DNA of 25,864 bases from a virus, in the UHGV virus genome UHGV-0869939; one strand, given 5' to 3'. A program made the position numbers and the translations under genes. The notes beneath the pieces were generated by a model. That model was not told where the DNA came from. It made no database searches and worked only from the letters and a program-made list of their open reading frames with translations. Shown in pieces: positions 21,038 through 21,889 of this stretch; within the stretch, counting starts at the first letter, position 1; every line of letters starts with the position of its first letter.

Positions 21038-21889
21038 ATGAAAAAAATAAATTTGTTTTTTGGCATAGTGCTTTCAATAGTCTCTGTAAATCCTACAGCT
21101 GCCAGTTCATTGCAATGCAATAAGGATAACTTTGATGCATGCAAAACGTGTGAACAATTATCAAAGGCTATCGACTTAAAAGAACCTAATCGTGGCGATT
21201 ACTATAGAGGGGCTTTATGGAATGGGCTTTACGCCTCTTATGTAATTAATTGCCCTGTGGTTGCTGAGAAGTTACTGAGCCATGGTGCTATACCATCATA
21301 TGGCGGATATATGGGGTCTATGGGGGCGGTTCTGACAGGAAAATGGCCTCATAACAATGAATCAATAAATCTTTCATGGGCAGATTTGCTTATAAAACAT
21401 GGATTTGATGTTAATAGGCATACGGGGAATTATAAATCAGCTACTGAAGTATGGGCTATAGATAAAAAACAGATTGAATATAAGTCAGTTTTTGACAAGT
21501 TAATTCAATCCAGCGAAGTAAAACCACTCGATCCTTCAAGAAATTTAGAATGGTGTGCGTCTGAAGGGTATCGCTCAGTTGTCGTTTATTCCCTTAACTC
21601 ATGTATAGAAAATGCTATAAAACGTTTGGATGATGGTGTTTCTTCAGCGTCTGATATTTCATCAGCAGCCGTAAATTCCTGTACTAGCGATGTAGAAAAT
21701 TTCAATAAGCATTTGGCATGCAAAGCAGCTGTTAAAGAAAACTCTGATAAAGAGAGAAGCGACGTTTACCAGTTATTAACCAGTGATAGTCAAATGAATA
21801 AAAATGTTATTGATATGCTGAAGGAAAGAAATATTGAAACGGTTCTTGAATTTAGAGCTGAAAATCGATCAGCGAAAACTGCACAGTGA
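21038..21889 (+). CDS. AT-rich moron: secreted Cys-rich protein with ankyrin-like repeat signatures
   Basis: 283 aa; signal peptide MKKINLFFGIVLSIVSVNPTAA; 8 Cys; VVAEKLLSHGA and ADLLIKHGFDVNRHTGN resemble ankyrin-repeat consensus; composition visibly more AT-rich than flanking virion genes. Confidence 0.5.
   Translation: MKKINLFFGIVLSIVSVNPTAASSLQCNKDNFDACKTCEQLSKAIDLKEPNRGDYYRGALWNGLYASYVINCPVVAEKLLSHGAIPSYGGYMGSMGAVLTGKWPHNNESINLSWADLLIKHGFDVNRHTGNYKSATEVWAIDKKQIEYKSVFDKLIQSSEVKPLDPSRNLEWCASEGYRSVVVYSLNSCIENAIKRLDDGVSSASDISSAAVNSCTSDVENFNKHLACKAAVKENSDKERSDVYQLLTSDSQMNKNVIDMLKERNIETVLEFRAENRSAKTAQ

What the first reader, a model, noticed from the sequence alone, without database searches (positions are those of the whole stretch)
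21038..21889. AT-rich secreted Cys-rich protein with ankyrin-like repeats placed directly after the ejection-protein genes
The gene has foreign-looking base composition, a clear signal peptide, eight cysteines, and two segments matching the ankyrin-repeat consensus (VVAEKLLSHGA, ADLLIKHGFDVNR). It is probably a lysogenic-conversion or periplasmic effector gene rather than a virion component.
Basis: partly seen in the sequence, partly recalled or inferred. Interest (0 to 1): 0.55.

Follow-up and report, generated by a model that had tools for sequence, protein, structure and literature searches.

The report
Secreted ankyrin-like phage protein, likely lysin inhibitor
The last gene of this prophage's virion operon encodes an exported, disulfide-bonded two-domain protein that is not part of the virion. 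Stand-alone relatives of its ankyrin-like half often sit next to a cell-wall-cutting enzyme domain that the phage also carries in an ejection protein, so it may inhibit that enzyme in the periplasm.

Summary
ORF 21038-21889 (+) is a real 283-aa gene under purifying selection, 12 GC points below the window. It has a signal-peptide-like N-terminus and eight invariant cysteines. It ends the late operon of an epsilon15/phiV10-like prophage, 1 nt after the 1129-aa internal-virion gene and just before a strong terminator.

It has two domains, neither covered by Pfam or NCBIfam:
- **N-terminal (aa ~24-157):** a divergent ankyrin-like domain. Pfam Ank misses it, but family profiles hit true ankyrin proteins (E=2e-6).
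- **C-terminal (aa ~158-283):** a confident helical bundle with an LDDGxSxASDI motif.

The slot is variable cargo. Related phages carry unrelated genes or nothing there, so the protein is not a virion part.

New lead: stand-alone N-domain genes abut a gene for an Enc34-type (PHA02564, PDB 7Q47) peptidoglycan hydrolase in 6 of 25 assessable loci. The same domain sits in this phage's 915-aa ejection protein.

Best reading (about 0.4): a periplasmic binder or inhibitor of that hydrolase, giving T4-Spackle-like superinfection exclusion or immunity. Expression in lysogens is not shown; no own promoter was found. This is a new variant of a known kind, of moderate interest.

The parts
21038..21889 (+). 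CDS of the 283-aa exported two-domain protein (stop codon included)
   Evidence: ORF list. PHROG 6118, unknown function, E=1.7e-200. 22 homologues in Escherichia, Klebsiella, Serratia, Morganella and Providencia. dN/dS 0.16 against the Klebsiella-type copy.
21038..21106 (+). Signal-peptide-like N-terminus (aa 1-23; cleavage inferred after residue 22-24)
   Evidence: It is the only hydrophobic segment. The n/h/c features are conserved although the sequence varies. pLDDT is below 50 for residues 1-24. No trained predictor was run.
21107..21508 (+). N-terminal divergent ankyrin-like domain (aa 24-157), with Cys27, 35, 38 and 72.
21509..21886 (+). C-terminal helical-bundle domain (aa 158-283), motif C-x8-LDDGxSxASDI-x8-C, with Cys173, 189, 215 and 228
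21896..21923 (+). Intrinsic terminator closing the late operon (7-bp stem with 6 G-C pairs, then a T-run)
   Evidence: The homologous sequence is annotated as a terminator in phiV10.
17647..21036 (+). Upstream 1129-aa internal-virion (ejection) protein gene; its stop lies 1 nt before the ATG of the finding
   Evidence: PHROG 342 and 16310. Junction sequence. Same gene order in Morganella and Serratia prophages.
15632..16033 (+). Enc34-type (PHA02564) peptidoglycan-hydrolase domain, aa 245-378 of the 915-aa ejection protein (gene 14900-17647). This is the proposed target or partner of the N-terminal domain.
   Evidence: PDB 7q47_A 'Endolysin' E=4e-16 and 9vvp_L Gp29 E=3e-36. The HENGS motif holding the catalytic Glu is kept (PMC8943055). 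The same domain is encoded next to stand-alone N-domain genes.

Best explanation
The gene encodes a Sec-exported periplasmic protein built from two disulfide-stabilised modules found on mobile elements: a divergent ankyrin-like binding domain and a helical bundle. It is the last gene of the late operon of an epsilon15/phiV10-like temperate podophage and is accessory cargo, not a virion part.

Proposed mechanism: in the periplasm the ankyrin-like domain binds and neutralises Enc34-type (PHA02564) peptidoglycan hydrolase domains. This phage and its relatives carry that domain on an ejection protein to cut the wall during DNA entry. A cell that makes the protein would resist wall penetration by incoming related phages. 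That would be superinfection exclusion analogous to T4 Spackle blocking the gp5 tail lysozyme, or more generally immunity to such lysins.

Shown:
- the gene is real
- its export features
- conserved cysteines
- two-domain architecture
- ankyrin-like profile similarity
- variable slot
- late-operon position
- recurrent adjacency of stand-alone N-domain genes to Enc34-type hydrolase genes

Inferred:
- actual export and disulfides
- physical binding and inhibition
- the target being the ejection-protein hydrolase
- the timing of expression
- any role for the C-terminal domain
For: Export and periplasm:
- Conserved signal-peptide layout and eight invariant Cys.

Not a virion part:
- Only 1 of 58 phage records with a homologous ejection protein carries the gene.
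- The slot is filled differently or empty in phiV10, the Klebsiella phage, TL-2011b and the Vibrio phages.

Binding scaffold:

Link to the hydrolase:
- An HMM of the Enc34-type domain found it in 7 of 31 stand-alone N-domain loci.
- In L077, L083, L086 and L094 it lies directly downstream on the same strand, abutting or overlapping the N-domain gene. In L046 and L047 it is convergent with overlapping 3' ends. In L045 it is on a tape-measure-like protein 3.3 kb upstream.
- That is 6 of 25 loci with enough downstream flank. It is 6 hits in 51 kb within 1 kb of the gene, against 1 hit in 128 kb further away and 0 in 35 kb of control loci.
- The paired N-domain proteins are only 34-55% identical to each other and have different neighbours, so the pairing is old. 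The window's N-domain is 35-50% identical to them.
- The partner hydrolases show no signal-peptide-like N-terminus by eye, so the two proteins would meet only if the enzyme arrives from outside. That is the logic of immunity.

Precedents:
- The domain is experimentally muralytic (PMC8943055).
- It serves as a T6SS effector domain with a signal-peptide immunity gene just upstream (PMC13340143).
- T4 Spackle is a periplasmic, disulfide-bonded helical inhibitor of the phage's own tail lysozyme (PMC7677548).

C-terminal domain:
- Stand-alone relatives lie on prophages and islands. One overlaps the 3' end of a CI/S24-type repressor gene by 4 nt.
Against:
- Only about a quarter of stand-alone N-domain genes have the hydrolase next to them.
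- In the window the hydrolase-bearing gene is two genes (5 kb) upstream, not adjacent.
- No N- or C-domain gene lies within 5 kb of the Enc34-type domain in 80 other viral loci. For the closest relatives the slot falls just outside the fetched flank.
- No consensus promoter precedes the gene. Expression in lysogens, which prophage-conferred exclusion would need, is therefore not supported.
- T4 sp is an early gene, whereas this one is the last late gene.
- The known immunity protein Tai5a for an Enc34-like T6SS domain is unrelated.
- The N-domain part of the AF2 model is only moderately confident (pLDDT 55-85).
Confidence: 0.4

Rival explanations
1. It gives immunity against bacterial weapons rather than phages. 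The prophage supplies its host with a periplasmic inhibitor of Enc34-type lysins delivered by competitors (T6SS cargo, or lysins released by lysis). That would be a fitness-conferring lysogenic conversion.
Against: No T6SS marker was identified next to the cassettes; the only candidate is a ClpB/ClpV-like AAA+ gene in L094, which is ambiguous. Tai5a is unrelated. No lysogen-active promoter was found. The gene co-diverges with the phage ejection module, which fits a phage-directed role better.
Confidence: 0.2
2. It is a generic periplasmic accessory or lysogenic-conversion factor unrelated to peptidoglycan hydrolases. It could bind another envelope or host target, for example as a secreted ankyrin acting on eukaryotic cells like Ankyphage ANKp, or as a partner of periplasmic redox proteins.
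For: Secreted phage ankyrins with signal peptides reduce phagocytosis (bioRxiv 10.1101/608950). About three quarters of stand-alone N-domain genes have other neighbours. A distant branch is translationally coupled to a 125-aa cytochrome c gene. Other members are fused to TPR or MORN modules.
Against: A Sec signal delivers only to the periplasm. The family occurs in free-living soil, marine and groundwater bacteria. The hydrolase adjacency is far above background.
Confidence: 0.2
3. It helps the phage's own lytic cycle. Made late, it would regulate, activate or time the phage's own wall-degrading enzymes, or protect the infected cell from premature damage. The ankyrin immunity protein Tli is also required to activate its effector.
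For: It is the last gene of the late operon with a 1-nt gap, so co-expression with virion genes is the visible route. The Morganella relative also has an Enc34-type endolysin (L002 12247-12723).
Against: Close relatives with a 93% identical ejection protein lack the gene. In 32 viral loci with small endolysin-like Enc34-type ORFs, no N- or C-domain gene lies within 5 kb. Ejection proteins have no export signal, so they do not meet a periplasmic protein in the producing cell.
Confidence: 0.1
4. It is a virion or ejection-complex component, or an assembly chaperone.
For: Its position directly after the internal-virion genes and its conserved synteny.
Against: It has a signal-peptide-like N-terminus and eight conserved Cys, which suit an oxidising compartment. 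It is absent from 57 of 58 phage records with the homologous ejection protein. Both domains occur as stand-alone secreted proteins outside virion modules.
Confidence: 0.03

Closest known systems
T4 Spackle (gene sp), a periplasmic superinfection-exclusion protein
   Same: It is phage-encoded and exported by a cleavable signal. It is a small disulfide-bonded helical bundle acting in the periplasm. Its target is the lysozyme carried by the phage's own injection machinery (PMC7677548). Here the proposed target is likewise the hydrolase domain of the phage's own ejection protein.
   Different: There is no sequence or fold similarity. This protein has two domains with an ankyrin-like binding domain. 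The target enzyme family is Enc34/PHA02564, not T4-type lysozyme. The gene is last in a late operon of a temperate podophage, whereas sp is an early gene of a virulent myophage. Inhibition is untested here.
Periplasmic immunity proteins of T6SS cell-wall and lipase effectors, for example the ankyrin-repeat Tli (PDB 7UBZ) and Tai5a of S. rhizophila
   Same: They are signal-peptide proteins encoded directly beside a periplasm-acting enzyme gene. Tli has an ankyrin scaffold. Tae5 has an Enc34-like effector domain (PMC13340143). Stand-alone N-domain genes show the same gene grammar.
Ankyphage ANKp and other secreted phage ankyrin proteins
   Same: They are phage-encoded ankyrin-type proteins with an N-terminal signal peptide and no transmembrane segment. 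They were argued to be secreted rather than virion-borne (10.1101/608950).
   Different: ANKp proteins were found by Pfam Ank models, which do not detect this protein. ANKp acts on eukaryotic cells. Here the genomic associations point to a bacterial cell-wall enzyme.
Morons: accessory genes at the ends of late operons of temperate phages
   Same: It has lower GC than its neighbours, variable presence between related phages, a terminator directly downstream, and an envelope-located product.
   Different: No promoter of its own was detected, and the start is coupled to the upstream gene. It has co-diverged with the neighbouring genes for a long time rather than being a recent insertion.

Membership tests
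Ankyrin repeat (Pfam Ank clan) | Recognised by the curated Ank HMMs (PF00023, PF12796, PF13606, PF13637, PF13857) | tested here: not met
   hmmscan of the 283-aa protein against Pfam-A at E<=10 gave 0 families. Stand-alone relatives P0023 and P0025 and the longer N-domain-containing P0032 also gave none.
Ankyrin repeat (Pfam Ank clan) | Statistically significant profile similarity to bona fide ankyrin-repeat proteins, in repeat register | tested here: met
   N-domain profile against PDB sequences: Ankyrin-1 E=2.1e-6, RBL4 2.9e-6, and all listed hits except one (6smn, E=0.23) are ankyrin or designed repeat proteins. Alignments cover the outer helix plus the GA-x-x-N loop. The full-length profile hits P0059 in 7 stretches (E=9e-10) and P0076, both rich in Pfam Ank. 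hhalign against a consensus DARPin typed in from memory (not retrieved) gives P=8e-4 but only 24% probability.
Ankyrin repeat (Pfam Ank clan) | Stacked helix-turn-helix repeat fold | tested here: inconclusive
T4 Spackle-type superinfection exclusion | Cleavable periplasmic signal and a disulfide-bonded helical protein | tested here: inconclusive
   Signal-like N-terminus by heuristics and conservation only. The C-domain is a confident helical bundle with 4 conserved Cys. Disulfide geometry was not inspected.
T4 Spackle-type superinfection exclusion | Homology to Spackle | tested here: not met
T4 Spackle-type superinfection exclusion | Binds and inhibits the injection-machinery lysozyme and excludes superinfecting phage | not testable with these tools
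   Only a genomic association with the Enc34-type hydrolase domain is available.
Toxin-immunity (periplasmic immunity protein) | Signal-peptide protein encoded directly beside the cognate periplasm-acting enzyme | tested here: met
   Met for stand-alone homologues: 6 of 25 assessable loci, four of them same-strand and abutting or overlapping. For the window gene itself the hydrolase-bearing gene is two genes upstream.
Toxin-immunity (periplasmic immunity protein) | Neutralises the enzyme's toxicity | not testable with these tools
   This needs co-expression or biochemical assays.
Moron | Own promoter and terminator flanking the gene | tested here: not met
   The terminator is present. No consensus sigma-70 promoter lies in 20500-23200, and a relaxed scan found only 8/12 matches. 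The ATG is 1 nt after the upstream stop.
Moron | Deviant composition and presence/absence polymorphism between related phages | tested here: met
   The gene is 9-17 GC points below the upstream gene in every lineage examined. The slot differs in phiV10, the Klebsiella phage, TL-2011b and the Vibrio phages.
Virion internal/ejection protein | Cytoplasmic synthesis without an export signal, and conservation wherever the ejection module is conserved | tested here: not met
   It has a signal-like N-terminus. It is present in 1 of 58 phage records carrying the homologous 1129-aa protein.

The most novel reading that the evidence does not exclude
The N-terminal domain may define an undescribed, widespread family of periplasmic, disulfide-bonded ankyrin-like immunity or inhibitor proteins specific for Enc34-type (PHA02564) peptidoglycan hydrolases. 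Epsilon15-like phages would have recruited it, fused to a second periplasmic module from mobile elements, as a Spackle-like exclusion device aimed at the wall-cutting domain of podophage ejection proteins. That would be the first such mechanism for T7/epsilon15-type ejection machinery.
Probability: 0.3. Interest if true: 0.72.

Novelty: new variant of a known kind. Interest (0 to 1): 0.55.

Why it matters
If the inference holds, it would have three consequences:
- It would add a new protein family to the short list of proteinaceous inhibitors of cell-wall hydrolases. The known ones include Ivy, MliC/PliC, PliG, PliI and Spackle.
- It would explain how some podophage lysogens or infected cells block wall penetration by ejection proteins of related phages.
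- It would give a function to two unannotated domain families found in prophages, genomic islands and free-living bacteria.

It also matters practically. Enc34-type lysins are being considered as antibacterials, and a mobile inhibitor present in about 2% of complete E. coli genomes (106 of 5426) would be a ready-made resistance determinant. Even without that, the work turns a 'hypothetical protein' into a directly testable hypothesis with named partners.

Tried and rejected
Searches that found nothing or were uninformative:
- Pfam, NCBIfam and PADLOC gave nothing for the protein. Pfam on 16 C-domain members gave only noise.
- The BFVD fold search gave no hit below E=0.08.
- The afdb50 library was unavailable.
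- Profile searches for names returned only 'hypothetical protein'.
- The search for related loci with the broad N-domain alignment failed for lack of a conserved stretch.
- A stand-alone N-domain query found nothing in plasmids and only EC.W1-9 in phages.
- The extra C-domain contexts P0092 and P0078 were uninformative.

Ideas tested and rejected:
- Tai5a, the immunity protein of an Enc34-like T6SS effector, is not a family member; its sequence is unrelated.
- A lipoprotein reading is rejected because there is no lipobox before the first Cys.
- An own promoter is not supported.
- Recent horizontal acquisition is rejected because the gene co-diverges with its neighbours.

Reverse test:
- 80 viral loci with the Enc34-type domain had no N- or C-domain gene within 5 kb. 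This argues against a lysis-cassette role. It is blind to the epsilon15-like slot, which lies 5.4 kb away.

Full report
**1. The observation**

- GC is 36.9% (GC3 28%), against 48.5% for the window and 47-51% for the virion genes.
- There are eight cysteines, at 27, 35, 38, 72, 173, 189, 215 and 228. All are invariant across 14 homologues down to 39% identity.
- The N-terminus has two lysines, a 14-residue hydrophobic core and a small-residue c-region. It is the only hydrophobic stretch.
- The same layout recurs in 14/14 full-length homologues and 22/24 stand-alone relatives, although the sequence varies. AF2 leaves residues 1-24 disordered.
- I had no trained signal-peptide predictor. Export and the cleavage site after residue 22-24 are therefore inferred. 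A lipobox is absent.
- The gene is real. It has homologues in Escherichia, Klebsiella, Serratia, Morganella and Providencia. dN/dS is 0.16 against the Klebsiella-type copy.

**2. Setting**

The window is an epsilon15/phiV10-like temperate podophage.
- The compared stretch (window 20500-22158) is 99% identical to Escherichia phage EC.W1-9.
- By PHROG it encodes terminase, portal, major head protein, tail protein and two small internal virion proteins. It also encodes a 915-aa protein with a lytic domain and a 1129-aa internal virion protein.
- The finding starts 1 nt after the stop of the 1129-aa gene.
- A strong intrinsic terminator follows at 21896-21913. phiV10 shares that sequence and annotates it as a terminator.
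- No consensus sigma-70 promoter lies anywhere in 20500-23200. A relaxed scan of the 440 nt upstream finds only 8/12 matches.
- The only visible route of expression is the late operon.

**3. Cargo, but old cargo**

The slot between the last ejection gene and the terminator varies between related phages:
- phiV10 has a 46-aa membrane protein.
- Klebsiella phage ST512-KPC3phi13.3, whose 1129-aa protein is 93% identical, has an unrelated 204-aa protein with no signal-peptide-like N-terminus by eye.
- TL-2011b has nothing on that strand.
- The Vibrio relatives go straight to an 833-aa gene.
- Of 58 phage records with a homologue of the 1129-aa protein, only EC.W1-9 has this gene. It cannot be needed to build the virion.

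Yet the gene is not a recent arrival.
- In Morganella and Serratia prophages it occupies the same position.
- It has diverged in step with its neighbours: 41% against 44-60% in Morganella, and 61% against 57-79% in Serratia.
- It is 9-17 GC points below the upstream gene in every lineage examined. AT-richness is therefore a maintained property, not a sign of recent transfer.
- It is present in 106 of 5426 complete E. coli genomes, always on the chromosome.

**4. Architecture**

A profile search of 1.84 billion representative proteins splits the protein into two modules.

*N-terminal domain (residues ~1-157)*
- It matches stand-alone secreted proteins of about 160 aa. Their conserved features are C-x7-C-x2-C, GDYYRGAxWNGLYxAYVxNC, GAxPxxGG and WPHxNxxINxxW.
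- Pfam, NCBIfam and PADLOC recognise nothing.
- It is not met for family profiles. The N-domain profile against all PDB sequences returns, with one exception (serine hydroxymethyltransferase, 6smn, E=0.23), only ankyrin or designed repeat proteins (Ankyrin-1 E=2.1e-6).
- The full-length profile hits multi-repeat Pfam-Ank proteins in 7 and 6 stretches.
- I read it as about three divergent ankyrin-like repeats behind a Cys-rich cap.

*C-terminal domain (residues ~158-283)*
- It matches stand-alone secreted proteins of 110-160 aa sharing C-x8-LDDGxSxASDI-x8-C.
- Modelled alone it is a very confident helical bundle, pLDDT 94.

**5. Contexts of the separate modules**

*C-domain genes* lie on mobile elements:
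- One overlaps the 3' end of an S24/CI-type repressor gene by 4 nt, opposite a Cro-like gene. That is the classic position of lysogen-expressed exclusion genes.
- One lies in a prophage near the integrase and a GH108 endolysin.
- One lies on a P4-integrase island.

*N-domain genes* also sit on islands and prophages. The informative result came from the neighbours.
- The 915-aa ejection protein carries, at aa 245-378, a domain homologous to PDB 7Q47 (E=4e-16).
- 7Q47 is the catalytic domain of the Hafnia phage Enc34 endolysin, family PHA02564. It is experimentally muralytic, with a catalytic Glu in a conserved HENG context (PMC8943055). The window protein keeps HENGS.
- I searched an HMM of this domain against all loci holding stand-alone N-domain genes. 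It was present in 7 of 31.
- In six of those it is the immediate neighbour. L077, L083, L086 and L094 have the order N-domain gene then hydrolase gene, on the same strand, abutting or overlapping. L046 and L047 have convergent genes with overlapping 3' ends.
- In the seventh, L045, the domain is on a tape-measure-like protein of an unrelated prophage. There the N-domain gene closes the tail module.
- Counting only loci with at least 700 nt of downstream flank, 6 of 25 are paired.
- There are 6 hits in 51 kb within 1 kb of the gene, against 1 in 128 kb further away and none in 35 kb of control loci.
- The paired N-domain proteins are 34-55% identical to each other and have unrelated surroundings, such as a restriction-modification gene, a TPR/PEGA giant protein and an AAA+ gene. 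The pairing is therefore ancient.
- The window's N-domain is 35-50% identical to them.
- The partner hydrolases show no signal-peptide-like N-terminus by eye and carry His-rich tails.

**6. Mechanism**

A secreted binding protein encoded beside a wall-degrading enzyme that lacks an export signal follows the grammar of immunity proteins. The two meet only when the enzyme arrives from outside.
- The same enzyme domain is the N-terminus of a T6SS effector, with a signal-peptide immunity gene just upstream (PMC13340143). I checked that immunity protein, Tai5a, and it is unrelated.
- In a phage, the closest analogue is T4 Spackle. It is a periplasmic, disulfide-bonded helical protein that inhibits the lysozyme of the phage's own tail and so excludes superinfecting phage (PMC7677548).
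- I therefore propose that the ankyrin-like domain binds and blocks Enc34-type hydrolase domains in the periplasm. In this phage that would bring exclusion of phages using such ejection proteins, or immunity to such lysins.
- The C-domain's role is open. Its prophage contexts suggest a second periplasmic, possibly lysogen-expressed, module.

I put about 0.85 on 'exported periplasmic accessory protein'. I put about 0.55 on a functional link between the N-domain family and Enc34-type hydrolases. I put about 0.4 on the full inhibitor or exclusion reading.

**7. Weak points and rivals**

Weak points:
- Nothing physical was tested.
- Three quarters of stand-alone N-domain genes have other neighbours. 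These include a cytochrome c partner in a distant branch and MORN or TPR fusions.
- In the window the hydrolase gene is 5 kb upstream.
- No promoter for lysogenic expression was found.

Reverse test:
- In 80 viral loci with the Enc34-type domain, no N- or C-domain gene lies within 5 kb. Thirty-two of these have small endolysin-like ORFs.
- This argues against a lysis-cassette cofactor role. It is blind to the epsilon15-like slot at 5.4 kb.

Rivals:
- defence against bacterial lysins rather than phages
- a hydrolase-unrelated periplasmic or eukaryote-directed role, as for Ankyphage ANKp (10.1101/608950)
- regulation of the phage's own lysis
- a virion role, which is very unlikely

**8. Novelty and verdict**

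Both domain families lack Pfam and NCBIfam models, and the only label is PHROG 6118, 'unknown function'.
- The kind of thing is known: a phage accessory gene for a periplasmic protein, possibly a lysin inhibitor.
- The families, the fusion and the proposed target are new.

I rate it a new variant of a known kind. Interest is moderate and rests on a well-supported genomic association plus an untested mechanism.

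Noticed in passing
window 21919-22080 (-), within the longer ORF 21919-22152: A small convergent ORF encodes a 53-aa product, MKKAFAALFVLLSLVASTQAFA|GRCQHDSD...GGGG, with a signal-like N-terminus and a Cys/Gly-rich tail. It ends at the same terminator as the finding, which may work in both directions. It is annotated 'putative transmembrane anchored protein' in TL-2011b and is conserved in several epsilon15-like phages.
   Followed up: partly
window 22162-22674 (-) and 22661-22987 (-): The 170-aa ORF is PHROG 1651 and matches Pfam YafO_toxin below threshold (E=9e-4). Its TL-2011b counterpart is named a YafO-family toxin by RefSeq. The overlapping upstream 108-aa ORF could be its antitoxin. 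This is a possible toxin-antitoxin pair next to the cargo slot.
   Followed up: partly
window 23823-23907 (-), 23932-24008 (-), 23117-23773 (-): Rfam finds a C4 antisense RNA (61 bits) and an isrK Hfq-binding sRNA (68 bits) directly upstream of an AntA/Bro-N anti-repressor gene. This looks like a P1/P7-style antisense-RNA-controlled anti-repressor module.
   Followed up: no
window 5180-5256 (-): A tRNA-Arg (anticodon TCT) lies on the minus strand in the ~1.3-kb stretch between the terminase and portal genes, which has no long plus-strand ORF.
   Followed up: no
window 20500-23200: The consensus scan finds no sigma-70 promoter-like site on either strand, against 6.1 +/- 2.6 expected from shuffles, even though the region holds several divergently oriented accessory genes.
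   Followed up: partly
L077 6402-7049, L083 772-1353, L086 4644-5174, L094 6398-7030: Small (176-215 aa) Enc34-type hydrolases with no signal-peptide-like N-terminus by eye carry His-rich C-terminal tails (for example HPHEDRSHRHHRHRHHH). They are translationally coupled behind a secreted ankyrin-like gene, in non-phage surroundings. They look like orphan lysin-immunity cassettes whose delivery route is unknown.
   Followed up: partly
L010 5624-6489, L013 248-1113, L014: A distant branch of the N-domain family (P0095, P0099) is chromosomal. It is translationally coupled behind a 125-aa periplasmic cytochrome c gene and is followed by an isopentenyl-transferase-family (IPT/IPPT, miaA-like) gene.
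   Followed up: no
P0054, P0065, P0066; L085, L088, L092, L093: The N-domain also occurs fused to other modules. In P0054 it is followed by a long linker and C-terminal TPR repeats with a sub-threshold YfiO match. In marine contigs it sits behind what look by eye like MORN-type repeats (not profile-tested) in 458-479-aa secreted proteins.
   Followed up: no
L002 12247-12723: The Morganella relative has a 158-aa ORF directly after its two holin genes, presumably the endolysin, that is itself of the Enc34 type (43% identical to the domain in the window's ejection protein). That phage therefore carries the domain twice.
   Followed up: no
L084 2252-2905 (-): About 1.1 kb from another stand-alone N-domain gene lies a 217-aa ORF with an E-x8-D-x5-T motif typical of T4-type (GH24) lysozymes. 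Two small secreted ORFs lie between them. This was seen by eye only and not profile-tested.
   Followed up: no
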